Positions 9,099-59,394 of a stretch of 64,000 nucleotides of DNA are shown in pieces. The stretch lies in IMG/VR virus record IMGVR_UViG_3300035701_000012; one strand, 5' to 3'. The notes beneath the pieces were generated by a model. The model was given only the letters and a program-made list of their open reading frames with translations, was not told the origin of the DNA and did not search any database. Position 1 is the stretch's first letter. Every line of letters begins with the position of its first letter. This DNA comes from a virus (lineage: Duplodnaviria; Heunggongvirae; Uroviricota; Caudoviricetes). The position numbers and the translations under genes were made by a program.

Positions 9099-10055
9099 AT
9101 GAGGGATGAATCACTTCTAAAATTTGAGGAATGGTGGCATTCGAGAAGTCATAAGAGAAAGAGAATCAAGGGTCTCAAACTAAGTGATAAAACTTTGGTA
9201 TGTTATAAAAATATCTTATATAAAATGCCTGATATAGAGGTAACAACAGGCACGAATGTTGATAAAACAATCATGTTCCTGCGGAAATGGTTGGAAGATA
9301 ATGTTGGAGTTGATAAAATATTCAAAACGAATTATCCTCAAATGACTTTCGCATTGAGAACTTATTTGAAAATGTATGAGGATGACCCAGACCCAAAAAT
9401 AAACCGAAAAGCTAAAACGATTCGAGTTCAGATAAAAAATGTATTGACTCAGGATGTGAAAGGCACTCAGAAATTTTTCATATTTAAGGTTCTGTCGAAA
9501 ACTCAGATTAGAAAAATAATAGAATTGATACCGGATGAATTACCGCATAAAATGGATAGAGATATTTTTGTATTGCTACTGTCATTACTTTATGAGACAG
9601 GTTGCAGAATAGATGAGATTTGCAATATTAAGAAATCTGATATAAACTTTGAAGAGAGAAGTATAGATGTGTTCGGTAAGGGTCAGTATTTTAGAAGAGT
9701 CTCCTTTGAATTAGATGTTAAAGATATGCTTCATGAACGATGCGTATTTATTTCTGAAAAGGATTATATTTTTTCTTGGAAAACACAGACTGTTAAAAAT
9801 TATTTCAAAGCAATAATTAGAATTATGTATTCTAAACATAAGAAAGAACTGTGGGAAAATTTCACTAAAATATCACCGCATTGGTTCCGTCATTCGAGAG
9901 CTACACATTTAGCAGTTATTTGGAACGATATAATAAAAATTAAGGATTATATGGGTTGGTCGGACATAAAAATGGCTGAAGTATACATCGAAAATGCCAA
10001 TATACTTCCTGCGGAAATAAGGAAATATCATTCCTTATTGCTTTGGGAAGACTGA
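9099..10055 (+). CDS. tyrosine recombinase / integrase (XerC/D-phage integrase family)
   Basis: box I ...LLYETGCRIDEICNIKKSDI...; box II ...HWFRHSRATHLA...DYMGWSDIKMAEVY... (R, HxxR, Y). Confidence 0.85.
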   Translation: MRDESLLKFEEWWHSRSHKRKRIKGLKLSDKTLVCYKNILYKMPDIEVTTGTNVDKTIMFLRKWLEDNVGVDKIFKTNYPQMTFALRTYLKMYEDDPDPKINRKAKTIRVQIKNVLTQDVKGTQKFFIFKVLSKTQIRKIIELIPDELPHKMDRDIFVLLLSLLYETGCRIDEICNIKKSDINFEERSIDVFGKGQYFRRVSFELDVKDMLHERCVFISEKDYIFSWKTQTVKNYFKAIIRIMYSKHKKELWENFTKISPHWFRHSRATHLAVIWNDIIKIKDYMGWSDIKMAEVYIENANILPAEIRKYHSLLLWED

Positions 10056-10525: not shown

Positions 10526-11263
10526 TTGATAACTTCTTTTTTTTATTTCTCTCTTAATAATCATGGAGATGATGTTGTGAATAAAACAAGATTGTTGAAG
10601 ATAGAGGACATTGAAATCATGGGAGATTTATATCCAAGAAACACGGTTAATTGGAGAATCGTTTACAAGTATCAGATGGCTATGAAAGCTGGAGCAAAAT
10701 TTCCACCTATAGAGGTTGGTTATTTGAACAAGAAGCCTATTCTTGTTGATGGTCTTCATAGGATTACTGCAAGAAAGCACAACAAAGAGCAATATATCGA
10801 ATCTAAAATCATTGAAATAAAGAATGATGCTGATGTTTTAAAAAAAGCCATCGAAATAAATACCCGGCATGGATTGGCGCTGACTCAGGAGGAAATGGTC
10901 AAAGCAGTCCTCACTTTGAGGGATTTGAAATATTCCAATGAAGAAATTTCTCACATCATTTCAGTGCCTTTGGAAAAACTTGAGACTTATGTGAATGATA
11001 GGTTGATGTTGGCATCAGATACGAATAGCAAATTGGTTTTGAAAAAACCACTGAAGCGATTTTCGGAGATGTCTGTAGATGATAAAACACTCAAAAAGAT
11101 GGAGCATGACCAAGAAAGGATGGCTACAGGGCAGACTCAGGAAAAGATGATTGATGATTTTTTGTTGATGCTCGAAAACAATTATTTTGATATGGACAAT
11201 GAAAAAGTTAAAAAGAAACTTTTTCAAATTTATGATTTGTTGTTTACGTTGAAAAAAAGATAA
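10526..11263 (+). CDS. ParB/sulfiredoxin-like nuclease-domain protein (true start may be internal)
   Basis: KFPPIEVGYLNKKPILVDGLHRITARK resembles the ParB N-terminal domain DGHHR box. Confidence 0.5.
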   Translation: MITSFFYFSLNNHGDDVVNKTRLLKIEDIEIMGDLYPRNTVNWRIVYKYQMAMKAGAKFPPIEVGYLNKKPILVDGLHRITARKHNKEQYIESKIIEIKNDADVLKKAIEINTRHGLALTQEEMVKAVLTLRDLKYSNEEISHIISVPLEKLETYVNDRLMLASDTNSKLVLKKPLKRFSEMSVDDKTLKKMEHDQERMATGQTQEKMIDDFLLMLENNYFDMDNEKVKKKLFQIYDLLFTLKKR

Positions 11264-11557
11264 TAATTAAGGTTGGGTTCGATGCGGTTAGCTAAGGTCG
11301 GATGCGGTCAGGCACGGTTCGTTGAGTTAAGGTTTGATGAGGTAGGGAATCATATTTCCGTAAACAATATCGCATCACAATTACATGGCGGTAGTTTGTT
11401 TAACTACACTATAACTGATGGTCTGAGATGCGTGTCATGTGCATCCTCAAGACTATTGTTTCCCCAAGAATGCGAATTGGCGGAATAATAATGGCGAGGT
11501 TTTATTAGGTTCGGTGCGTTGGGGTTAGGAGAGTTTGGGTAAGGCAGGGAAATCATA

Positions 11558-11719
11558 ATGACAATGTTACAAACCATCGGTCTGATAATTTTCGGATTCG
11601 GGATAGTGATAGCGAATGTCAATTTGACAAAAAAAAGAAATAAATTTACGAGTTACATAACAGCTGTAGCAGGGTTCATGATAGGATTTGGAGCAGGGTT
11701 GTTTGCGAATAATTTATGA
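11558..11719 (+). CDS. possible 53-aa two-TM micro-protein inside the repeat region
   Basis: ATG directly after a box copy; hydrophobic GLIIFGFGIVIA / AVAGFMIGFGAGLFA segments. Confidence 0.3.
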   Translation: MTMLQTIGLIIFGFGIVIANVNLTKKRNKFTSYITAVAGFMIGFGAGLFANNL

Positions 11720-11905
11720 TTTTATATTGATTTCAGGTTATGGTTTGGTAGATTGAGTTGAGTTGGGGCGAGATAGCGTTTGGTTAGGTATGGCAGGGAA
11801 TTAATTCATACTTTCGAGGTTGGATGGGATTAGGTTTGATGGGGTTTGGTCTGTCAGGACATGGTTGTGCGTGGTAAGGCAAGGTTCATATTGAGGTGAG
11901 ATGAA

Positions 11906-12493
11906 ATGAGACAAATAACAGTGCAATTAACAGGAGCAAGTCCATTGCTTATGCACTCTATTAGCCTTCAAACTATGGAACAGATGATGAAGAAAGTAAA
12001 GAAAGGCGGAACAGGTTCGATTCCATCACCTGAAGACGAAGCCGAACAAGGTGCTTACAGGATGAAAAGCGGAGAGCTTTGCATTCCTGCGAGATGTATC
12101 AAAGCCTGTTTGGTCAACGCTTCAACATGGTATAAAATGGGAAAGAAATCTGCGAAGCAATTCATAGCAGGAAGCGTAACGATAGAGCCATACGAAGTCG
12201 GACTTGGAACAAAAAAGTATGAGATAGATTTGCGAACCGTTGTGATTCAAGGAAAAAGCAGAATAGTTCGAGCAAGACCGAGACTTGATAACTGGTCTGT
12301 GACTTTCAATATCATATACAATGATAAAGTCATGGAATCCGAAATCATAAAACAAATCATGGAAGAAGCTGGTTATCGGATTGGATTGCTTGATAACCGA
12401 CCACAGCGTGGTGGAGAATGCGGTTGCTTCAAGGTAACAGGATGGAAAGAAACTGAAGTAAAACCTATTCCAATTTCAAGAACGAGAGCATAG
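11906..12493 (+). CDS. hypothetical protein
   Basis: 195-aa ORF immediately downstream of a box copy; no recognisable family. Confidence 0.5.
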   Translation: MRQITVQLTGASPLLMHSISLQTMEQMMKKVKKGGTGSIPSPEDEAEQGAYRMKSGELCIPARCIKACLVNASTWYKMGKKSAKQFIAGSVTIEPYEVGLGTKKYEIDLRTVVIQGKSRIVRARPRLDNWSVTFNIIYNDKVMESEIIKQIMEEAGYRIGLLDNRPQRGGECGCFKVTGWKETEVKPIPISRTRA

Positions 12494-13407
12494 AAACGGT
12501 GAAAATCCGTTCTATGTTATTATGGTAGGTTGCGGTGAGTTACGGTGGAGTGGGACAAGGCAGGATGTGGTTTGGTTTGTTAAGGTAAGGTTCGATAGGG
12601 CGGGAAATTTTATAATCATATTTTCGGTATGGCTCGGTTTGATAGGATTGGGTGTGATTAGGTTTGGTATGGTGTAGTATGGTGTAGTATGGTTGGTTCA
12701 TGGCAAGGCAAGGAATAATATTTCATAATATCATGGCTCGGTTGGTCGTGTTGCGGTTTGGTGAGATTTGGTCTGGTATCAGCATGGTTGGGCATGATAT
12801 GTTTTGGTTTGGTCGGGTGAGGTAATTTTATTTTTATATTTCTGGTTCGGTGAGTTGGGAGTGCGGTTCGGTGGGGTAAGGTTGGATAAGATGAGGTAGG
12901 GTTATAATCATATTTGTGGTGTGATGGGTTACGGCACGGCACGATATGGTCTGGTTCGGTTTGGCAAGGCAAGGAAACTTTATACTTACGGTTCGGTTCG
13001 GTGTGTCAGGTCAGGTCTCGGTTCGGTGGGGCAGATTTTGGTAAGGTAAGGTGGGGAATTATTTTATATTTGGGGTATGGTTCGGTAAGATGAGATGAGC
13101 AGTGGTGAGATGCGTTTTGGTTTGGCGAGGTGGGGAAAGTTTATTTTATATTCGTGGTATGGTTCGATGGGGTCATTTGGGGTGTGGCGAGTCCGGGTTG
13201 TGTGAGATGAGGTAAGGAAATTATATTTCATATTTATGGTTAGGTGCGGTTAAATGGGATTTGGTGAGGTTTGTTTGGTTTAGGTGGTGTCTGGTGAGAT
13301 TTGGCAGGGAAATTATTTTCATATTTGCGGTATGGTAGTTTGGGTTGGGGCACGGTGCGGTTTGAGTCCGCTACGGTTGGGTAGGGCAAGGAAATTTCAT
13401 ATTCGAG

Positions 13408-13716
13408 GTGATTATAACAGAAGCATGGTATAAACAGAAAGAATGGAAACAACAGTTGAAGGACTTGAAATTTGCAGAGCATAAAAGAAGAGAACTTGAA
13501 AAAAGAATAAGGAAGAAAGAACGAGAGTTACAACGAAAAGAAGAAAAAAGCGGAGACTGTGAATCGTGTGGTAAGTTTTTCACGAATCTTACAGAGCATC
13601 ATACAACGATGCGAAAATGCAATCAGGAAGTTCAGATGATATGCAGAAAATGTCATCGTGAACATAATATGAAAAATCCAAAGCATCCGTGGGGTATAAT
13701 TCCAAAGAAATATTAA
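13408..13716 (+). CDS. small HNH-type endonuclease / zinc-finger protein
   Basis: CESCGKFF...LTEHH...N...CRKCHREHN fits an HNH beta-beta-alpha-Me signature. Confidence 0.5.
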   Translation: MIITEAWYKQKEWKQQLKDLKFAEHKRRELEKRIRKKERELQRKEEKSGDCESCGKFFTNLTEHHTTMRKCNQEVQMICRKCHREHNMKNPKHPWGIIPKKY

Positions 13717-13861
13717 TTTCATATTCATGGTATGGTGAGTTAGGGTCTGGTCAGATGGGACACGGCTTGGTAGGATGAGTTCGGGTGAATTAAGGTGTGT
13801 TATGGTCGGTTGGGTTATGGCATGATAGGGTAAGGAAATTGAAATAGTATTTGGTGATTCA

Positions 13862-14278
13862 ATGTCGATAGAAATGTTTGAAGGAAAAAAAGGGTCGGAA
13901 GATTTTGAGAAGAAGCTATCAAAAGTGATAAAAGACAAAAAGGAAGCAGAGAAAATATCAAAATTGCTGGAAAATGTTATGATGAGAGATAGAGAATCAC
14001 TTGATAGAATAACAAGAGATATTTTGGATTCTGATTTGAAGAGATATGGCGATAAATTATGCACTCTCAGTTCTGCGATAGCTAATGAGATGCTTGTAAG
14101 ATTGGTTATACTGAGAAAGTTGGATATAGCTTTTCATAGAGATGCAACTGTTGATGTTATCATGCCGGAATTGATAAATACTTCAAAAAAGATTGCAGAT
14201 GCAGAAAAAAATGAATTCCAAAAAATATTAGATGCGTTTCAAAAGAAAACCATTGATGACACGAATTATATTGGTTGA
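13862..14278 (+). CDS. hypothetical helical protein
   Basis: ORF following a box copy. Confidence 0.45.
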   Translation: MSIEMFEGKKGSEDFEKKLSKVIKDKKEAEKISKLLENVMMRDRESLDRITRDILDSDLKRYGDKLCTLSSAIANEMLVRLVILRKLDIAFHRDATVDVIMPELINTSKKIADAEKNEFQKILDAFQKKTIDDTNYIG

Positions 14279-14547
14279 GGCGAGATATGCTCCGTTCAGT
14301 TATGGCAAGGTGTGATAAGATTTGGTAAGGTAGGGAAATAATAATTTCATAATTTCGGCATGGTTCGTTTTGGTGCGTTGAGGTAGGGTTGGCTACAGTT
14401 AGGCGTGGTGCGTTGGGTTATGATTTGGTCTGGTCGGGTAGGGCAAGGAATTATAATCATATTAGGTATGTTGAGTCACGCTGAGTTGGGTTTCGGTTTG
14501 GCGAGGCAAGGTTCATTTTTGCGAGGATAGCCAAGACTGGTCGAATA

Positions 14548-15006
14548 TTGAGAGATGAAGAAAAAATGAAAACTAAATGGTCTGAAACAATAAGTAATGG
14601 GATTAAAAAGAAAATGGAGAATGACCCAGTTTTTAAAAAACAATGGATTGAAAAATGTAAATTAGGTCGAAAGAGACAACAGGAAATATATGGTTGTCTA
14701 TTGACTTTTGAAGATAGAAGTAAAGGTGGAAAAATAGGATGGAAAAAAAGCAATACTGCACTAATGGAAGGCGCAAAAAATTCAAGAAAATATGAAAATG
14801 CAGTAGCCGAAAACATAAAGACAGATTATGAATTTTTTTTGCATGGATATTCCATTTGTGATAGAGTTGGATTTAAAAACGGCACCATTTACTTCATTGA
14901 AATAAAAAGAAAAAATCGTAAACAAAATCCCAGACAAAAAATGTTTCAAGAATTGGTTCAGAAAGCTAAAAAATTCAAATATGTTATCGTTCATGACTCT
15001 CAATAG
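14548..15006 (+). CDS. hypothetical protein, possible PD-(D/E)xK nuclease fold
   Basis: ICDRVG...IYFIEIKRK resembles D...(E)xK. Confidence 0.4.
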   Translation: MRDEEKMKTKWSETISNGIKKKMENDPVFKKQWIEKCKLGRKRQQEIYGCLLTFEDRSKGGKIGWKKSNTALMEGAKNSRKYENAVAENIKTDYEFFLHGYSICDRVGFKNGTIYFIEIKRKNRKQNPRQKMFQELVQKAKKFKYVIVHDSQ

Positions 15007-15074
15007 ACTAAAGGCGCAAGGCTTAGGTGCGAAGCTTAAGGGCGATGCTCAAGAGTGATTAGGAAACCTTGTTG

Positions 15075-15118
15075 GGTTAGTCCCTCATCGTCAGTTCAAA
15101 TCTGACTCCTCGCATAAG
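15075..15118 (+). other. tRNA 3'-half-like fragment (anticodon-stem 3' strand, variable region, T-arm GTCAG-TTCAAAT-CTGAC, acceptor 3' strand TCCTCGC, then A) with no matching 5' half
   Basis: a canonical T-arm plus 7-nt acceptor strand are readable; the complementary GCGAGGA is absent upstream. Confidence 0.45.
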
Positions 15119-15195
15119 GTGGAGTTTGGCTTGTTGCGGTGAGGTAGTTGTGGGTTTTGTTTTGGCTGGGTAAGATGCGGTGAGGTGGGGTTGAT

Positions 15196-15591
15196 ATGCC
15201 ATCAAAAACAAAAGTGCAATGGTATGACAAAGATGGAAAACCGATAGATATGTTTGAAGCAGACAAGAAATTGCGAGATGGAGAATACAAGATAATCTTG
15301 AGAACCATCATAAAAGATAAAATGGTATCAACAATCTGGTTGGGATTAGACCACTCTTTTACCGGTTCAAGACCTATGATTTTTGAAGTAATGGTTTTCA
15401 AATGCAAAGAACTTGTTCCAAAAAAGAAAAGAAATGTTAATCAAGGAAAAAAAGATAAATTCAAAGTAAATCAAAGATTTGAAGTAGATTTTTCAAAAGA
15501 ATATTATTCAGAAAGATATTCAACTCAGGCAGAAGCAATTGAAGGTCATTTGAGTATTGTCAAAAGAATCATGGTGGGTGAGATAATATGA
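15196..15591 (+). CDS. hypothetical protein
   Basis: ORF after a box copy. Confidence 0.45.
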   Translation: MPSKTKVQWYDKDGKPIDMFEADKKLRDGEYKIILRTIIKDKMVSTIWLGLDHSFTGSRPMIFEVMVFKCKELVPKKKRNVNQGKKDKFKVNQRFEVDFSKEYYSERYSTQAEAIEGHLSIVKRIMVGEII

Positions 15592-15731
15592 CAGAAATAA
15601 AACGATGCACAGGTGCTTGTGTGTATTTTATAATTGGTAATGAGGATGTCATTGCCTGTGGAGTTTGTGGAAGAATCAAAGCCATCCGAGAAAGTGAACA
15701 TGGACAACGTGGCTGGAAGATTTTAATTTGA
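15588..15731 (+). CDS. 47-aa zinc-ribbon micro-protein (not in ORF track)
   Basis: ATGA overlap with upstream stop; CTGAC...CGVCG. Confidence 0.35.
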   Translation: MTEIKRCTGACVYFIIGNEDVIACGVCGRIKAIRESEHGQRGWKILI

Positions 15732-16071
15732 TATTTTTGGTTGGGCAGAATTCGGTTCGGCAAGGTTCGATGGGGTTAGGTTAGTTTAGATATGGTATGG
15801 TTAGGTAGGGAATTTTTATTTTCATATTTATGGCTGGATAGGGTTGGGCATGACCTGATGCGGTGAGGTTTGGTGTAGTAGGTCTTGGTAAGGTAAGGAA
15901 ATTTTGTTTTCATATTCGAGGCACGATGGGGCATGGCAGGGTATGATTCGGTTCGGTATGATATGATAAGGTTTGTCAGTGTGTGGTAAGGCAAGGTAAG
16001 GATTTTTATGCCGTTATGCAATTGTGATGTTGAAAGGAGAACAATCAAAATAAACACTGAATGTTACTATA

Positions 16072-16398
16072 GTGTTTGCACACAGTGTGGAAAAAAAGTC
16101 AAAGTATATACAGGTGGTAAAGTTGAAAATCAGATTAAGAATCGAAAAAGGTAAAAAAATCATTGAAATTCCATTCACAGATAATGAAATTCGAGACCTT
16201 TATGAAGTAGGATATATTCCGAGCTTTGAGAACATTAAAGACAACAAACTGAAGGATTTTCCTTCTGCTCATCATAAATTGACGTTTATTGTTCATGATA
16301 TTTTGGATAATGGTGGGGTTTGGATACCTGACAAGAATGGAAAATACAGATTAAAGTATGGTCAATGGCTTGTAAAGAAGCCGAGATGGAAACAGTGA
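16072..16398 (+). CDS. hypothetical protein
   Basis: ORF following the last box copies; CYYSVCTQCGK. Confidence 0.45.
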   Translation: MFAHSVEKKSKYIQVVKLKIRLRIEKGKKIIEIPFTDNEIRDLYEVGYIPSFENIKDNKLKDFPSAHHKLTFIVHDILDNGGVWIPDKNGKYRLKYGQWLVKKPRWKQ

Positions 16399-44467: not shown

Positions 44468-47400
44468 TTTTTCGTCTCCTCTTTTTACTTGCTCTTCTGA
44501 TAAGCCAAATCGTAATTATAATTAAAACTATGATTATCCAAAGCAATGGCGTAGAAAAAGCTCTGACTATTGCTGATGGAGAATCTTTGAAAACAAACGG
44601 AGATGTCATGAAATCGGCAAAAGCCTGAACTATTATTGGCACTGCTGGTATATTGGTAACTTCTACATCAATCGGTATGATTTTTGCCCAGTTTTGAGAC
44701 TTGGTTAGTATGTTAAAAGAATATCTTTTATATACTGTTCCATCGGGAACGCAAGTTGTCACATTAAAAAACGCTTTTCTGTTGTATTCTGTCGAACCTC
44801 CGGGAACTACCATAAAAAACGTAGTTGAAGTGCCATTGAATCTTGTCCAAGTTGCTGAATGGTCTCCCAAATCAACCAAAACTAATCCCAATTCTAAATC
44901 ATTTGCTTTTGTATTGCCTACTAAAAAATCATAAGTAAAACACTGAGCTTTATCCAATTGAATTATTCTATGGTCTGGTGTGAAATACCAAGTAACATTA
45001 CCACAATCTATCAAACAAATCTGTTCTTCACCGGGAGTGCAAACACCATCACCACATATATTCAATCCACCTCCACCACCAGTTAAAATCACTCCTCCTG
45101 TCACACCGCCACCACTTGGCGGAGCAGCAACAAATAAACCTAATGTGAAGTTGAGATTAATTGTCGAGTTTGTAATATTCAAATCGGTTACGTTGATTTG
45201 CCAATGACCAATATTAAAATAATCAGCAAAAGGCAGATACATGAAAAAATATCCTGTGCCATTGACAGTTGTATTGGTTTCATTCGCTAAAAAAAGAATA
45301 GATGAATTCGTAACATTCGGAGCATACCATCTAATCCTTATTGTTGCATTGTCATAATATGTTCCATTTGACTGATAAAGATGACCTGAAACAAAACCTT
45401 GCTCATTCGTAAGATATTGTATATTACCTACACTTGCTGTAAAAATAATTGGTGGAGGCGGTAGCGGAATAAATTCTACTGTGAAATTAGTTGTAATCAA
45501 ATCTGCTGAATGAACAGGTATCATTAAAAAGATAGTCACAAAAACCAAAAGCACGACCATTATCGGCTTTTTTGAATCATTCTTGAAAAGATAAATGCAA
45601 CCAAATGCTGACGAACCCACTAATATTAACATGATAATGTTAATAACATTAACAGGATAATAACTCGCCATTGGGTCGATGATTGCTGAAGGCACTGTAT
45701 TTTCCTGAGTAGCGACAACTCTTCCGATAGGCTCTGTGCCGTAGCTTATCCAAACTTCATTCGGGTCTATCTGAATTTCCCTGATAACGCTATAAGTTCC
45801 AACCGGCACTTGAGGTCTTAATTTTACTATGAACGAAATGTTTGTCAACATTTTTCCTACAGTTTCAACCTCTAATGGTTGGCAATGAGGAGTCGAATTT
45901 GTTGATTCATTGAATTGGTCAATACAATTTCCATTGCTATCCAAAAACCAATAATTTATTCTCACAGGAAGATAATTTGTATCATTGAATCCTGCCTTCA
46001 AAGGTATGAAAATACTGTAATTGATTGTAAGCGATGATGTTTCGTTCAATATTAAATTTGTTATGTTCTCTGATAGCAATACGCTTTGGTTTGTTCTGAA
46101 CAAATAATTCCAAAGATTATTCACAACCGTATTAGTATTGGCAGTATAAATTGTGACCTGAGTTCCATTTAGGTCTGTGAGAGTTCTATATGAAAACGAC
46201 CAAATGTCTGCTGCGGTCACATTCACGAATGTGGTGTTATAGTATGTCAGCGTTCTTTGAGTAGAATTCCAAATATAGAGAGCTTGTGTTTGATAATCAA
46301 AAACTGTCAGGCTTCTATTTGGGAAATTCCAAACATCTTCGCCTGTTATGTTCGCCATACCTTTGAGGATGCCTATTATTTCTGTATTATTGTAGTCCGT
46401 AAGAGACCTGACTGAAAAGTTCCAAACATCTGATGCTGTTATGTTTGACAACCCATTCAGCAATCCTATTATTTCTGTGTTGTTATATTCTGTCAGAGAC
46501 CTGTTTCCAAAAGTCCAAACATTTGCTGCTGAAAGATTCGACAATCCATTTATCAAACCGATGATTTCAGTATTGTTATATTCCGTCAAAATTCTGTTGG
46601 AATAAATCCAAACAGATTGGGCGGTGAGATTAGAAAGATTGTAAAATCCCTGACCGATTGTTACATTTATATCAGAAAGTATGATATAGATTCCACTGAG
46701 ATTGTAATCTGAAAGTGTGCGGTTTGTATATGCCCAAACTTGTCCTGCTGTCAAATTAGATTGACCTAATAAAATTCCTTTAATTTCAAAGGTCGTATCG
46801 TTGATTCCTAAAACATATCCTTTCATCTCACTCAAATTATAATCCGTTAAAACTCTTGATGCAAACGACCATACTTGGTCGGCAGTCAGATTCGATAGTC
46901 CGAGTAGGATTCCCTTGTTTGTATAAACTGTGCCGTTGATGTCTATCACGAACCCACGAATCTCGCTAAGATTGGCTTCTATATTTGAGAAATTTATTCC
47001 TGATGTATTATAGAAAGTAAGTGTCCTATTGGAATAAGACCATACTTGGTCAGCTGTCAAATTCGCCATGCCTTTTATCAATCCATTATTTTCATAGACT
47101 GTGCCGTTGATGTCTATCACGAATCCATGAATTACTGAATTGTTGTAGTCAGTCAATTCTCTGACCGTATAATTCCAAACTTGTCCAGCTGTCAGATTCG
47201 ACAAACCAAGCAGGATTCCTTTGTTTTCATAGGTCGTTCCGTTTATTTCAATGATTATAGATTTTATTTCACTCAAGTTATAATCTGTTAGAGTTCTCGA
47301 TGAAAAACTCCAAATTGCTGAAGGTGTTGTCGCATTGAATGTTAGGTTAAATAACAAATTTTTATTGATGTAAACAGTATCATTAATGTCCACGATGTAT

Positions 47401-55948: not shown

Positions 55949-57277
55949 TCAACCCGTCTCTTCCAAGTGTTCACTAAGTGGTGGATACGGAAAAAATATG
56001 GTTTCTTCTTTCAGAATTCCATCCACCATATACCATTCTCTTTCTCCGTTTGCTTTTGTCCGCATACCTCTGATAGTATCAGAAACATCTCTCGTAAAAC
56101 TTGGGTGAAAATCCGCTTTTTGGTAAGCCTTCAGGATGCACACCAATGACTGTGTATCAATATTATTGGCACAAAAAGTATATCTCGATTGCGTTAACAC
56201 CCAATTTGGCAACATATCCGCCCTTTGGGCAGCAAACAAAATATAAATTCCCAATATTCTCCATTGGTTCACTGCTCTCATTAGTTCTTCTTTGGTAGTT
56301 TCCATTCTCAAAAACACAGGAGCTTCATCTATCACTAACAACATTCTTCTTTTTTTGTCAAGATATTTTTCTTTTGCATTTCTGATGATTCTTTGACAAA
56401 CAGAAAAGAAAACTAAAGGAGTAGTAACGAATTCTCCTTTTGCTATATCTTCAAAGTGCTGATGATTGAAAACTACAACATAATCATCTTTCAAAGCCTG
56501 AACAATATCGCCAAGACCTTCTTTACTGCAAATCTTGTATCTAATCAACCCTTCTATCCTGCGAGATATTTTTTCCTTCATAGATTTTGAAACTTTTTCA
56601 TCTTCTTTGATTTTTTGTCTCAATTCTTCAAGAGAATCAACATAATTATAGTAAAGCGATACAATATTCGCATGGTCAACTGTTTGTGGTGTCGTAAAAT
56701 TAAGAAGTGAAAGAAGGTCATTGAGAGAAAGGTCTGAATATTTCAACTGAAATGGTTCATTGTCTTCCGGCAATTCTTCATCAAAATAAGCGGTATAAAA
56801 TGTTGGTCTGTATACTTTCATTTTCATAGGCATAGGCATATCTTCTTTTGCGAGAAGTGGAATGAATCTCCTTTGGCTTTCCATTGATGACCTCATTTCA
56901 TTTTTTACATCAGTCAAAAAGACAATATAAAACTTTGCGCCATTAGCCATATCGCATAATCGTCTCAATATAAAAGTTTTTCCAGAACCCGATTGACCAA
57001 CTACTAACATCCGGATAACCCTTTTCATATCGAGCCATAATTCTTCTCTCATTCTTTGCCTTTCTCTGAAATTGAATTTCTCAGTATAGCCGAAATGAAA
57101 ATACGATTTAGAGAATGCCATTTCTTTTTTCAAAGGATATTGTCTCACGACCATGAAGTTTCTGCCTTCACTCACATTCTTGAATGATTCAAAACTGCGT
57201 AGACCTCTGAATTGCGGAGATTGATACTGCTGATTAGTAAAAGGAAATTCTAACATACCACTATCAAATAATGTCAT
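55949..57277 (-). CDS. FtsK/HerA-superfamily P-loop ATPase (putative DNA translocase or packaging/secretion ATPase)
   Basis: Walker A VVGQSGSGKT; Walker B MLLVIDEAPVF; downstream LFAAQRADM resembling the (T)QR(P) sensor/arginine-finger box. Confidence 0.65.
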   Translation of the reverse strand: MTLFDSGMLEFPFTNQQYQSPQFRGLRSFESFKNVSEGRNFMVVRQYPLKKEMAFSKSYFHFGYTEKFNFRERQRMREELWLDMKRVIRMLVVGQSGSGKTFILRRLCDMANGAKFYIVFLTDVKNEMRSSMESQRRFIPLLAKEDMPMPMKMKVYRPTFYTAYFDEELPEDNEPFQLKYSDLSLNDLLSLLNFTTPQTVDHANIVSLYYNYVDSLEELRQKIKEDEKVSKSMKEKISRRIEGLIRYKICSKEGLGDIVQALKDDYVVVFNHQHFEDIAKGEFVTTPLVFFSVCQRIIRNAKEKYLDKKRRMLLVIDEAPVFLRMETTKEELMRAVNQWRILGIYILFAAQRADMLPNWVLTQSRYTFCANNIDTQSLVCILKAYQKADFHPSFTRDVSDTIRGMRTKANGEREWYMVDGILKEETIFFPYPPLSEHLEETG

Positions 57278-58063: not shown

Positions 58064-58657
58064 TTAATCGCCTTTTTTATCTTCTTCATCCTGATATTCC
58101 TTGCCAACATTTACAACTACTCGTTCTTTTTCTTGTTCAGTAGGCATAATATTCCTAAATGGAATCAATGGATGCGGAACTGGCGAACCGCCACCTGTCA
58201 TTTCGGTCTCCAAACCGAAAAAGGGATTTGCTTCGTCTTCATGAGAAGCTACTTCTCGAACTTTAGCTACTGAAAATCCATTAGAAGTTTTTTTCAAAAC
58301 GATACATCCTTTCTGAGCAGTTCTTCCTGAACCACGCATTACCCACCCACCAAAATATCGTTCTGTGCCATAGAATCTCTCAACGAAATAAATAAATCGT
58401 TCTTCTAATTTTTCACTAAATCTTTGAAGCCACCATGCCATTGCAAAATTAATAGCTTTTTGCATTGGTTCTTCTTCAGTTCCTTTCCACATTAGAAGCA
58501 AAACAATTATAGAAACAATAGCCATTACAATTAATGCAGCAACCAAAGTGTCGCCTGATACTTGAATATTAGCTGCAAACATAATAAAAATTATGAAAAA
58601 GACTACAGCCAAAATAATCAGCAGGGCTATAATAGGTTTATTTTTACCCACTATCAA
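58064..58657 (-). CDS. membrane protein (N-terminal TM pair) with cytoplasmic domain
   Basis: hydrophobic N-terminus; ATGA-type overlap with the upstream gene. Confidence 0.5.
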   Translation of the reverse strand: MIVGKNKPIIALLIILAVVFFIIFIMFAANIQVSGDTLVAALIVMAIVSIIVLLLMWKGTEEEPMQKAINFAMAWWLQRFSEKLEERFIYFVERFYGTERYFGGWVMRGSGRTAQKGCIVLKKTSNGFSVAKVREVASHEDEANPFFGLETEMTGGGSPVPHPLIPFRNIMPTEQEKERVVVNVGKEYQDEEDKKGD

Positions 58658-59394
58658 TCACCTGCTCGTTGTATCTTTAAGTTTATTCTTTCAAAAATAT
58701 TTTTGTCAATATCATGCTCCCAAATTCTGACAATATTGTATCCCATTTCTTGTAATTTAGTATTTATTTTGTCATCTTTCAGACGTTTTTTCAAATTATA
58801 TGTTTTAGGATGATGAATAGGACAAGAATGCCAATAACATCCGTCAACAAATATACAGATATTAGGCTTAATAAAAATATCTGGTTGACCGATAATTGAT
58901 TTATGTGTTTCAAAAATTATATTGTTTATTCTGAGAACATCTTGGATTATTTTTTCAGGTTTTGTATCTTTATATGGAATATGTGCTTTCAAACGCATTT
59001 CTCTCATTTTTTCTTTACGGAACGGTTCATCTTCAAACATTTTCTTTCTTTTTTCTTTCATTATTTTTTTTGTTTCTTTTGAATGATGTTTACCATAAAA
59101 ATGATTTTGCTCTTTAAAAAACCTAATTCCATACATAGAATTATTTTTTCCTTTCTGCCATTCTGGATGATTTTTACAATATTCTAATCTCTTTTTACTC
59201 ATCTTTTCTAAAGTTTTTTGTGAAAATTTTCTATTTATAAGTTTCAATTTACATTTTTCTATTGATTCTGGTCTATGTTTTTTTCTATACATCGGATGAT
59301 TTTCTTTATTTTTATAAAACTTTATTCGTGCCTTTTTCATTTCTTTGGCTTTTTTTTCACCATATCTCTCTTCCCAAGTTTTGCCTTTTTTCAT
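58654..59394 (-). CDS. Vsr/DUF559-like endonuclease domain fused to a Lys-rich N-terminal region
   Basis: C-terminal ...FVDGCYWHSCP...GYNIVRIWEHDI resembles the Vsr very-short-patch-repair endonuclease core (FVDGCFWH...LRxWE); N-terminal 130 aa about 35% K/R. Confidence 0.5.
   Translation of the reverse strand: MKKGKTWEERYGEKKAKEMKKARIKFYKNKENHPMYRKKHRPESIEKCKLKLINRKFSQKTLEKMSKKRLEYCKNHPEWQKGKNNSMYGIRFFKEQNHFYGKHHSKETKKIMKEKRKKMFEDEPFRKEKMREMRLKAHIPYKDTKPEKIIQDVLRINNIIFETHKSIIGQPDIFIKPNICIFVDGCYWHSCPIHHPKTYNLKKRLKDDKINTKLQEMGYNIVRIWEHDIDKNIFERINLKIQRAGD

What the first reader, a model, noticed from the sequence alone, without database searches (positions are those of the whole stretch)
11270..16070. 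Array of ~22 BRE/TATA-like boxes with G+T-rich spacers, partly orphan, interleaved with six genes
A degenerate ~30-35 bp box (approx. GGTAAGGCAAGGAAATTTTATATTTCATATTT; purine-rich element followed by TTTATATT, then often GGTATGG) recurs about 22 times over 4.8 kb. Each copy is followed by 50-90 bp of G+T-rich sequence made of GGTT(Y)GG, GGTGAGAT and GATGAGGTA units. Six + strand genes start within a few tens of nt of a box: 11906, 13408 (HNH), 13862, 14548 (PD-(D/E)xK-like), 15196 and 16072. The 12494-13407 stretch has 11 copies and no credible ORF; only 10-33-aa MVRF/MARL micro-frames begin at the recurrent ATGG(Y)TCGG. The box combines the archaeal BRE/TATA arrangement with an oligo-T run, which is also what archaeal terminators look like. 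Three non-exclusive explanations: (a) modular promoter cassettes that drive recombinational gene shuffling, analogous to promoter-stem-loop repeats in T4-like phage hyperplastic regions; (b) a tandem family of autonomously transcribed ~80-nt GU-rich small RNAs, each unit ending in the next unit's T-run; (c) replication-origin or packaging iterons. None of these is an annotated feature class, and the array is the most unusual structure in the window.
Basis: partly seen in the sequence, partly recalled or inferred. Interest (0 to 1): 0.8.

Follow-up and report, generated by a model that had tools for sequence, protein, structure and literature searches.

The report
VIPR guide-RNA array in a virus
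The "boxes and G+T-rich spacers" are about 22 guide-RNA genes of a VIPR system, a CRISPR-like RNA-guided DNA-silencing system of viruses first described in 2026 preprints, lying around the gene for its Cas7-like Vipr protein.

Summary
The array is real and far beyond chance. However, its defining feature is not a promoter box. It is a strict five-base periodicity, (GGY-NN)n, on the + strand only, confined to 11271-16014.

The 195-aa gene inside the array (11906-12493) is a Vipr protein. A profile of its homologues matches the solved SUSP1 Vipr structure (E=5.8e-15). The AlphaFold model has a Csm3/Cas7 RAMP fold. Five of six published RNA/DNA-contact residues are conserved.

I parsed 22 units of 10-22 pentamers each. 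G1 is 92% conserved, position 3 is a pyrimidine in 94%, and the NN positions have near-maximal entropy. That matches published vrRNAs.

In 58 of 60 loci carrying a Vipr homologue, same-strand period-5 tracts flank the gene. A ParB-like gene is a recurrent neighbour and a likely accessory gene.

The "BRE/TATA box" is a clade-conserved inter-guide motif: GGTAAGGCAAGGAAA, then an A/T run, then WTCATRYT. Relatives keep the TCAT core but lose any TATA resemblance.

No targets were found, and how the RNAs are expressed is unresolved.

Verdict: a new, unusually large, gene-interleaved member of a known (2026) system, probably from an archaeal virus.

The parts
10526..11263 (+). ParB-like gene (245 aa); candidate vipr-accessory gene (vap)
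   Evidence: It matches PHROG 1033, ParB-like partition protein (E=2.9e-8). A homologue lies within 3 kb of vipr on the same strand in 20 of 66 related loci. The neighbour in L169 carries a weak Pfam ParB_N hit. No Pfam or PDB hit for the window protein itself.
11264..11356 (+). vrRNA unit U01 (16 pentamers, tract 11271-11350, then box ending 11356)
   Evidence: Parse; period-5 chain. It starts 7 nt after the ParB-like stop codon.
11357..11488 (+). Non-periodic 130-nt insert between U01 and U02
   Evidence: It is not period-5. The RNA fold z-score is -1.6, not significant. Function unknown.
11489..11559 (+). vrRNA unit U02 (12 pentamers); its box overlaps the ATG of a 53-aa membrane ORF (11558-11719)
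11729..11812 (+). vrRNA unit U03 (13 pentamers), opened by the box at 11723
11813..11892 (+). vrRNA unit U04 (14 pentamers). It ends GGTAAGGCAAGGTTCATATT, followed by GAGGTGA and the vipr ATG.
11906..12493 (+). vipr gene: 195-aa Cas7-like RAMP protein (Vipr)
   Evidence: A profile of 42 homologues matches PDB 36pp 'SUSP1 Vipr protein' (E=5.8e-15). hhalign against the phage SUSP2 homologue gives 97.8% probability. The AF2 model has pLDDT 86.5. Top Foldseek hits are Csm3 and type VII Cas7. SUSP1 contact residues H17, K33, R138, D177 and R179 are conserved as H17, K33, R124, D163 and R165.
12495..12511 (+). Hairpin plus T-rich tail directly after the vipr stop codon (terminator-like)
12494..12622 (+). 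vrRNA unit U05 (about 16 true pentamers, 12524-12603, plus box)
12623..12729 (+). vrRNA unit U06 (18 pentamers). It carries the only polymorphism among metagenome copies, a 10-nt (two-pentamer) indel at 12667-12676.
12730..12840 (+). vrRNA unit U07 (18 pentamers)
12841..12914 (+). vrRNA unit U08 (12 pentamers)
12915..12986 (+). vrRNA unit U09 (12 pentamers)
12987..13070 (+). vrRNA unit U10 (14 pentamers)
13071..13152 (+). vrRNA unit U11 (14 pentamers)
13153..13234 (+). vrRNA unit U12 (13 pentamers)
13235..13325 (+). vrRNA unit U13 (15 pentamers)
13326..13403 (+). vrRNA unit U14 (13 pentamers); its box abuts the start of the HNH-like gene
13726..13852 (+). vrRNA unit U15 (22 pentamers), opened by the box at 13720
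14279..14353 (+). vrRNA unit U16 (12 pentamers)
14354..14463 (+). vrRNA unit U17 (19 pentamers)
14464..14517 (+). vrRNA unit U18 (10 pentamers)
15110..15195 (+). vrRNA-like tract U22 (15 pentamers). It has no box and ends 2 nt before the ATG of the 131-aa gene.
15736..15828 (+). vrRNA unit U19 (15 pentamers), opened by the box at 15730
15829..15916 (+). vrRNA unit U20 (14 pentamers)
15917..16008 (+). vrRNA unit U21 (17 pentamers), the last unit of the locus
13408..13716 (+). HNH-like 102-aa gene between array blocks (cargo, not a conserved VIPR neighbour)
   Evidence: Weak PHROG HNH hit. No homologue next to vipr in 66 related loci.
14548..15006 (+). 152-aa gene with weak resolvase/endonuclease-like similarity between array blocks (cargo)

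Best explanation
The region 10.5-16.0 kb is a VIPR (Viral Interference Programmable Repeat) locus of a virus or provirus, probably archaeal.

**Components**
- The gene at 11906-12493 encodes Vipr, a minimal Cas7-like RAMP protein.
- The G+T-rich "spacers" are the guide parts of about 22 vrRNA genes. Each is a run of 10-22 GGY-NN pentamers.
- The "boxes" are the conserved element between guides. Each consists of three near-invariant terminal repeats (GGTAA GGCAA GGAAA), an A/T run of 0-11 nt, and the core WTCATRYT.

**Mechanism (inferred by homology with the SUSP1 system, not shown here)**
1. One Vipr protomer binds each pentamer. It sequesters the GGY and displays the NN dinucleotide.
2. The resulting helical filament reads double-stranded DNA with the pattern NNxNNx... 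(one base skipped per repeat).
3. It silences transcription of competing mobile elements.

The ParB-like gene next to the array is the likely accessory (vap) gene.

**Expression (inferred, weaker)**
The arrays are most likely transcribed with the surrounding + strand genes and cut at the TCAT motif into individual vrRNAs. This fits better than each unit being driven by its own BRE/TATA promoter.
For: **Protein**
- The homologue profile matches PDB 36pp 'SUSP1 Vipr protein' (E=5.8e-15).
- The single sequence matches at E=8e-6, with H17, K33, R138, D177 and R179 conserved.
- hhalign against the phage SUSP2 homologue gives 97.8% probability.
- The AF2 model (pLDDT 86.5) hits Csm3 and type VII Cas7 best.

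**RNA**
- GGT period 5 has z of about 20.
- The 325 pentamers show G1 92%, G2 66%, Y3 94%, and N4/N5 entropy of 1.81/1.96 bits.
- There are 22 units with a median of 14 repeats.
- All tracts are on the + strand and confined to the locus.

**Association**
- 58 of 60 loci with a Vipr homologue have same-strand period-5 tracts beside it: 144 tracts on the + strand against 4 on the - strand.
- The same detector finds four tracts flanking the Vipr homologue of phage SUSP2, the sister of the experimentally studied SUSP1.

**Published definition:** Vipr plus vrRNAs of 9-16 YNNGG repeats, with GGY conserved, NN hypervariable and an invariable 3' tail.

**Box**
- The core WTCATRYT is shared by L060, L019, L016, L009, L169 and L012.
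- It also opens arrays directly after a stop codon.

**Other**
- No self-targets, as reported for other VIPR systems.
- The only polymorphism among copies is a register-preserving 10-nt indel.
Against: - No target was found under the 1-nt-skip rule. This covers 1.5 Mb of local sequence, where the observed best match equals that of shuffled guides, five exact core patterns in IMG/VR, and two in metagenomes. The only hits were at chance level.
- Position 2 of the pentamer is G in only 66%. The residue that stacks on G2 in SUSP1 (W178) is N164 here.
- Five units exceed the published 9-16 repeats.
- The tail region has no stable predicted fold (mean z +0.25), unlike the SUSP1 pseudoknot.
- No RNA data exist for this locus, so transcript ends and the mode of expression are inferred.
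- The VIPR type (I-VII) could not be assigned because the paper's figures and data files are not held.
Confidence: 0.9

Rival explanations
1. This is the same VIPR locus, but each unit is an autonomous mini-gene. The A/T-rich box would be an archaeal BRE/TATA promoter for the next vrRNA, and its T-run would terminate the previous one. It is a sub-model of expression and is compatible with the VIPR identification.
For: - Relatives occur mainly in archaeal MAGs: Bathyarchaeota, Thermoplasmata, Woesearchaeota and Aenigmatarchaeota.
- Seven boxes fit RNWAAW+TTTAWATA within 2 mismatches.
- About half the boxes carry four or more Ts.
- A box opens array blocks after stop codons at 11723, 13720 and 15730.
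- A terminator-like hairpin follows vipr, so the downstream block may need its own promoter.
- L031 has about 45 nt of TATA-like sequence between guides.
Against: - The BRE/TATA pattern is not above chance in the window (109 found, 141 expected).
- With a TATA at the box, the transcription start would fall 2-4 pentamers into the guide. For the boxes in front of vipr and the HNH gene it would fall beyond the start codon.
- The homologous element in L060 is about 12 nt with no T-run.
- In L009 it is TTCATGCTTA, and in L012 it is TTTCRTGG in 51% G+C DNA.
- In L008, tracts run from a stop codon to the next Shine-Dalgarno sequence with no promoter-like sequence.
Confidence: 0.3
2. The period-5 tracts are cis-acting leaders. 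Vipr, or another oligomeric RNA-binding protein, would bind GGY triplets spaced by 2 nt in the polycistronic mRNA. This would occlude the adjacent Shine-Dalgarno sequence, as TRAP does on (G/U)AG repeats.
For: - Several tracts end at or inside the ribosome-binding site of the next gene. Examples are U04 before vipr, U22 ending 2 nt before the ATG at 15196, and the L008 tracts ending GGTAAGGTAAGGAG...ATG.
- The triplet-plus-2-nt geometry equals that of TRAP sites (my own knowledge of the Bacillus trp leader).
Against: - Ten consecutive units at 12494-13407, and about 3.7 kb in L009, have no gene to regulate.
- The hypervariable NN positions are explained by guide function, not by leader function.
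- This reading could only be an add-on to the VIPR explanation.
Confidence: 0.1
3. The array is double-stranded-DNA iterons, that is, a centromere or origin bound by the adjacent ParB-like protein.
For: - A ParB-like gene lies next to vipr and the array in the window and in 20 of 66 relatives.
- Plasmid centromeres are often arrays of short degenerate repeats (my own knowledge).
Against: - The strand bias is absolute: 144 tracts on the + strand against 4 on the - strand across relatives, and 16 against 0 in the window.
- Tracts are present in most loci that lack a detectable ParB-like gene, including phage SUSP2.
- The cryo-EM structures account for GGY-NN as RNA bound one pentamer per Vipr protomer.
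Confidence: 0.04
4. The boxes are modular promoter cassettes whose repetition drives recombinational shuffling of the interleaved genes, analogous to T4 PeSL.
For: - The interleaved genes (HNH-like, the 152-aa endonuclease-like gene, and the 138-aa and 131-aa genes) are not conserved next to vipr in relatives. The region therefore varies in gene content.
- Repeats could promote recombination as a by-product.
Against: - No promoter enrichment was found: sigma-70-type matches are 16 against 16.4 expected, and BRE/TATA matches are below expectation.
- The repeat structure is fully accounted for by vrRNAs.
- No stem-loop is present at the boxes.
Confidence: 0.04

Closest known systems
VIPR systems (Vipr protein plus vrRNA), type II of Escherichia phage SUSP1 and the Pseudomonas fulva prophage; bioRxiv 10.64898/2026.04.26.720920 and 10.64898/2026.04.26.720927
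   Same: - The protein is a homologous roughly 20-kDa RAMP with conserved GGY- and DNA-contact residues.
- Same-strand GGY-NN pentamer tracts flank vipr, with hypervariable NN positions.
- A conserved element follows each tract.
- An adjacent DNA-binding-type accessory gene is present.
- The context is viral, and there are no self-targets.
   Different: - About 22 vrRNAs here against 4 in SUSP1. They form seven blocks interleaved with unrelated small genes.
- The inter-guide element is 15-30 nt, A/U-rich and unstructured. SUSP1/SUSP2 have a roughly 50-60-nt structured tail with a pseudoknot.
- Pentamer position 2 is relaxed (G 66%) and W178 is replaced by N.
- Units reach up to 22 repeats.
- The accessory gene is ParB-like.
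- The host is probably archaeal and the genome is 34% G+C.
- No targets have been identified.
Class 1 CRISPR-Cas effector backbone (Cas7/Csm3 on crRNA) and CRISPR arrays
   Same: - The RAMP fold is shared, with Csm3 and type VII Cas7 as top structural hits.
- A protein filament forms on a guide RNA, with periodic base flipping.
- Variable guides are separated by a conserved element in an array.
   Different: - There are no cas1/cas2, Cas5, Cas6 or large-subunit genes.
- There is no 24-48-nt repeat.
- The guide is a 5-nt-periodic scaffold in which only 2 of every 5 bases carry information. A crRNA has 5 pairing bases in every 6.
- The system is encoded by a virus.
TRAP (trp RNA-binding attenuation protein) binding sites in Bacillus
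   Same: Conserved triplets are separated by 2-3 variable nucleotides, with one triplet per protein subunit of an oligomer. Some sites overlap ribosome-binding sites.
   Different: The protein fold is unrelated. The triplet is GAG/UAG rather than GGY. TRAP sites occur once per leader and have no guide function. This is a resemblance recalled from memory, not tested here.
T4-type promoter-early stem-loop (PeSL) repeats
   Same: Repeated short elements lie between small genes in a variable phage region.
   Different: There is no promoter enrichment and no stem-loop here. The repeats are accounted for by guide RNAs.

Membership tests
VIPR system | A Vipr protein: a minimal RAMP (RRM core, G-loop, thumb) homologous to SUSP1 Vipr | tested here: met
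   The profile matches PDB 36pp at E=5.8e-15. hhalign against the SUSP2 homologue gives 97.8% probability. The model has a Csm3/Cas7 fold, and a low-confidence glycine-rich loop at 160-175.
VIPR system | Conservation of residues that contact GGY and the target backbone (SUSP1 H17, K33, R138, D177, W178, R179) | tested here: met
   Five of six are conserved: H17, K33, R124, D163 and R165. W178 is N164. R124 is invariant in the 42-sequence alignment, and D163 and R165 are at least 90% conserved.
VIPR system | vipr flanked on the same strand by tandem YNNGG/GGYNN repeats (at least 4 units; 9-16 per vrRNA) | tested here: met
   Period 5 has z of about 20. There are 22 units of 10-22 repeats with a median of 14; five units exceed 16. 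Tracts are on the + strand only.
VIPR system | GGY conserved while NN is hypervariable | tested here: met
   G1 92%, G2 66%, Y3 94%. N4 and N5 entropy is 1.81 and 1.96 bits, and all 16 dinucleotides are used. Position 2 is looser than in the published consensus.
VIPR system | An invariable 3' tail after the repeat tract (structured, with a pseudoknot, in the SUSP1 clade) | tested here: inconclusive
   A conserved element is present: GGTAA GGCAA GGAAA, then an A/T run, then WTCATRYT. It has no stable predicted fold (mean z +0.25). Whether it lies at the 3' end, the 5' end or both ends of the mature RNA is unknown.
VIPR system | An adjacent accessory (vap) gene with a predicted DNA-interacting function | tested here: met
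   The ParB-like gene 10526-11263 matches PHROG 1033 (E=2.9e-8). It recurs within 3 kb on the same strand in 20 of 66 relatives. The L169 neighbour has a weak Pfam ParB_N hit. Its identity with one of the paper's vap1-6 could not be checked.
VIPR system | vrRNAs expressed as discrete RNAs of about 100 nt or less that co-purify with Vipr | not testable with these tools
   No transcriptome data are available for this metagenomic element.
VIPR system | Natural targets in competing mobile elements under the 1-nt-skip rule (NNxNNx...), with no self-targets | tested here: inconclusive
   No self-target was found, and no target in 1.5 Mb of related loci (observed best match equals that of shuffled guides). 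Seven exact core patterns in IMG/VR and metagenomes gave nothing or chance hits. A mismatch-tolerant search of large collections was not possible.
VIPR system | Viral or proviral genomic context | tested here: met
   A tyrosine integrase lies at 9099-10055 and several genes have PHROG hits. 54 relatives are in IMG/VR and 136 GenBank phages carry homologues.
CRISPR array | Near-identical 24-48-nt direct repeats separating unique spacers, with cas1/cas2 or other cas genes nearby | tested here: not met
   No such repeat family was found. There are no cas gene hits in Pfam, PADLOC or NCBIfam apart from the RAMP fold of Vipr.
Array of archaeal BRE/TATA promoters | A BRE (RNWAAW) abutting a TATA (TTTAWATA) about 25 nt upstream of the transcript or gene start, above background | tested here: not met
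   Only 7 of about 24 boxes match within 2 mismatches. The pattern occurs 109 times in the window against 141 expected. The spacing to gene starts is too short at 11887 and 13398. The homologous boxes in L060, L009 and L012 are not TATA-like.

The most novel reading that the evidence does not exclude
In this clade, which is probably of archaeal viruses, vrRNA biogenesis may differ from the described architectures (SUSP1-type structured tails, hammerhead-interspersed arrays and staggered arrays). The short unstructured motif WUCAURYU would be a new maturation signal. It could be cut by Vipr itself, making Vipr a combined Cas6/Cas7, or it could be part of a compact promoter-terminator that makes each guide an autonomous mini-gene. 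Tracts abutting ribosome-binding sites, including the one in front of vipr, would then couple guide production to translation of the neighbouring genes. This would allow arrays of 20-40 guides interleaved with cargo genes.
Probability: 0.25. Interest if true: 0.65.

Novelty: new member of a known kind. Interest (0 to 1): 0.5.

Why it matters
VIPR was described only in 2026 preprints, as a minimal, PAM-free, RNA-guided DNA-binding system proposed to predate CRISPR. This locus shows that a raw-sequence scan can recover such systems. It also adds a divergent, low-G+C example, probably from an archaeal virus, with several useful features:
- It has one of the larger arrays seen here, about 22 guides. 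A relative in assembly GCA_964352345.1 has about 3.7 kb of guides.
- It has a different, unstructured inter-guide motif.
- It has a ParB-like accessory gene.
- It has a relaxed GNY-NN code with a matching change in the G2-stacking residue.

These features bear on how guides are made and diversified, on which the preprints say little.

The locus also flags a practical problem. Gene callers annotate these arrays as proteins, and Vipr genes in 136 GenBank phages are labelled hypothetical.

Tried and rejected
**Searches with no informative result**
- Rfam at gathering and at permissive thresholds found no family, including no hammerhead ribozyme and no tRNA.
- ARAGORN found no tRNA in the window.
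- blastn of the array against GenBank phages found no match.
- Pfam, NCBIfam and PADLOC were uninformative for Vipr and most neighbouring genes.
- The exact-sequence contigs L001-L006 were identical to the window, so they were no use for comparison apart from one indel.
- The afdb50 fold library was unavailable.
- The paper's supplementary tables are not held, so no VIPR type could be assigned.

**Readings I considered before the Vipr hit and then dropped**
- Sigma-70 -10 elements with leaderless AUG starts (one search shows no enrichment).
- Clusters of Shine-Dalgarno-like sequences acting as ribosome landing pads.
- Two-tetrad G-quadruplex arrays.
- Chi-like sites.
- Telomere-like TTAGG repeats.
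- Rep or large-T-antigen-type pentanucleotide iterons.
- Packaging signals.

None of these explains the strict period 5 together with variable NN positions and the association with Vipr.

**Hairpin around the TCAT core**
A small hairpin such as GAAA...UUUC looked plausible by eye. It is not supported by folding against shuffles.

**Target searches**
- The local search under skip rules 0-3 found nothing.
- The variable-core-only search gave the same best scores as guides with shuffled dinucleotide order.
- Five IMG/VR scans and two metagenome scans were run.
- The 96 metagenome hits had flanking matches at the chance level.
- The single IMG/VR hit (L173, 58% G+C) matched 21 of 28 positions. Only 3 of the 10 positions outside the searched core matched, which is the chance level.

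Full report
**1. What is in the sequence**

Reading 10.8-16.6 kb and anchoring on the CATATT/TATATT hexamer gives 23-24 boxes between 11351 and about 16003. They are spaced 54-127 nt apart within seven non-coding blocks. Those blocks alternate with + strand genes starting at 11558, 11906, 13408, 13862, 14548, 15196 and 16072.

The decisive feature was missed, however. The "spacers" are strictly pentanucleotide-periodic. GGT autocorrelation in the non-coding blocks is 53, 47, 41, 40, 42 and 33 at lags 5, 10, 15, 20, 25 and 30, against about 4 expected (z of about 18-22), and is at or below expectation at other lags. A chain detector finds 16 long period-5 tracts. All are on the + strand and all lie within 11271-16014. 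It finds none on the - strand, none elsewhere in the 64 kb, and about 0.3 in shuffles.

**2. The clue from relatives**

The 195-aa protein encoded at 11906-12493 has only a PHROG hit of unknown function. Distant homologues in IMG/VR contigs of 50-54% G+C (L007, L008) are also flanked by G+T-rich period-5 tracts, without any A+T-rich box. The tract, not the box, is therefore the conserved partner of this gene.

A contig from assembly GCA_964352345.1 (L009) carries about 3.7 kb of such units with almost no called genes. In L012 the array had been miscalled as a 248-aa protein.

**3. Identification**

- A profile of 42 homologues (A1) matches one entry in the PDB sequence library: 36pp, "SUSP1 Vipr protein", E=5.8e-15.
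- The AlphaFold model (pLDDT 86.5, pTM 0.81) is most similar to Csm3 and type VII Cas7 backbone subunits.
- hhalign against the homologue in phage SUSP2 gives 97.8% probability.

Two 2026 preprints describe VIPR systems. A Vipr RAMP protein polymerises one protomer per repeat on vrRNAs made of 9-16 GGY/NN pentamers. It hides the GGY and presents the NN. It then recognises double-stranded DNA with a one-base skip (NNxNNx...) and silences competing phages.

SUSP1 residues H17, K33, R138, D177 and R179 align with H17, K33, R124, D163 and R165 here. W178, which stacks on G2, is N164.

**4. Anatomy of the array**

A register-aware parse gives 22 units of 10-22 pentamers, with a median of 14. Over 325 pentamers:

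| Position | Composition |
|---|---|
| 1 | G 92% |
| 2 | G 66%, A 15%, T 17% |
| 3 | pyrimidine 94% |
| 4 | entropy 1.81 bits |
| 5 | entropy 1.96 bits |

- The last three repeats are nearly fixed (GGTAA GGCAA GGAAA) and the first two are semi-fixed (GGTAT GGYTC).
- The MVRF/MARL micro-frames are simply these first repeats read as codons.
- Among otherwise identical metagenome copies, the only difference is a 10-nt, two-pentamer indel in U06, which keeps the register.

**5. Generality and a positive control**

- 58 of 60 loci fetched through Vipr homology have period-5 GG tracts beside the gene on its strand: 144 tracts against 4 on the other strand.
- The same detector applied to phage SUSP2 finds two tracts upstream and two downstream of its Vipr homologue, each with about 12 repeats followed by a longer tail.
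- A ParB-like gene is within 3 kb on the same strand in 20 of 66 loci, in varying order relative to vipr and the array. The other interleaved genes are not conserved neighbours.
- Genomes holding relatives are mostly archaeal MAGs (Bathyarchaeota, Thermoplasmata, Woesearchaeota, Aenigmatarchaeota), plus two Chloroflexi MAGs.

**6. What the box is**

The core WTCATRYT recurs in relatives in these forms:

| Locus | Form of the box |
|---|---|
| L060 | AAGG-AATCATATTCA, only about 12 nt between guides |
| L019 | core present |
| L016 | core present |
| L169 | TTCATATTCATATTT |
| L009 | TTCATGCTTA |
| L012 | TTTCRTGG |

- In the window an A/T run of 0-11 nt is inserted between GGAA and the core. 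That insertion creates the TATA-like look.
- A generic BRE/TATA pattern fits only 7 boxes at 2 mismatches and is not above chance in this genome. Sigma-70-type promoters and intrinsic terminators are not enriched.
- The box region has no stable fold.
- The box both closes units and opens blocks after stop codons. In L008, tracts run from stop codon to ribosome-binding site.

I therefore favour transcription with the surrounding operon and cleavage at the motif, at about 55%. Per-unit promoters come second, at about 30-35%. Neither model has been demonstrated.

**7. Targets**

- Under the published rule, no guide matches the window or 1.5 Mb of related loci better than guides with shuffled dinucleotide order.
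- Exact variable-core patterns gave no hit, or only chance hits, in IMG/VR and metagenomes.
- The absence of self-targets agrees with the preprint. The absence of external targets is uninformative, because only exact matches could be searched in the large collections.

**8. Verdict**

This is a VIPR locus and a new member of a recently described kind. Its distinctive features are:
- the array size and its interleaving with cargo genes;
- the short, unstructured inter-guide motif;
- the ParB-like accessory gene;
- a relaxed second position of the pentamer, together with the W-to-N change in the protein.

Its promoter, iteron and shuffling readings are not supported.

Noticed in passing
window 15027-15116: A tRNA-like cloverleaf remnant lies between the 152-aa gene and tract U22. 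It has a T-arm (GTCAG-TTCAAAT-CTGAC) and an acceptor-like stem. ARAGORN and Rfam do not call it, and its fold z-score is +0.6. It may be an attP or att remnant for the integrase at 9099-10055.
   Followed up: partly
window 11357-11488: A 130-nt stretch between U01 and U02 is neither pentamer-periodic nor G+T-rich. Gene callers merge it with U01 into a 68-71-aa ORF. The RNA fold z-score is -1.6, and its function is unknown.
   Followed up: partly
L012 1377-2123; L002/L003 ORFs of 51 and 41 aa; window ORFs 12522-12677 and 12700-12825: Automatic gene callers annotate vrRNA arrays as proteins. One example is a 248-aa 'gene' in L012. This is a systematic annotation artefact for VIPR loci.
   Followed up: partly
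L008 6070-6137, 7885-7994, 8575-8685, 13788-13906: On a 128-kb viral contig (50% G+C), single GGYNN tracts fill four separate intergenic gaps. Each runs from a stop codon to the next AAGGAG ribosome-binding site. The guides are dispersed among genes rather than arrayed.
   Followed up: partly
L009 11400-15100 (GCA_964352345.1, contig CAYGRS010000001.1): About 3.7 kb of continuous vrRNA units, with at least 24 TTCATGCTTA-type boxes and almost no called genes (one 54-aa ORF at 13536-13700), lies directly after vipr and a ParB-like gene. This was the largest array seen here.
   Followed up: partly
GenBank phages: 136 GenBank phage records encode homologues of this Vipr, and all those listed are annotated 'hypothetical protein'. 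They include Felixounavirus/Suspvirus coliphages, Salmonella, Shigella, Mycobacterium and Gordonia phages, and Pseudomonas phages such as LESphi2.
   Followed up: no
window 16008-16154: A 48-aa ORF with two CxxC pairs (zinc-ribbon-like) starts right after the last unit U21, preceded by AAGGA.
   Followed up: no
window 37000-64000: Gene orientation and GC skew flip near 38 kb. The right part, on the - strand, encodes two giant proteins of 1768 and 2734 aa. The latter has a 93-nt tandem repeat at 46372-46614. It also encodes a VirB4/CedB-like ATPase (55949-57277) and a Vsr-like endonuclease (58654-59394). This may be a different module or element from the + strand virus-like part.
   Followed up: no
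L007 5103-7673 and 12330-12677: This 54% G+C relative carries 10 tRNA genes around its VIPR locus. One of them, tRNA-Arg(CCG), lies about 320 nt upstream of vipr.
   Followed up: no
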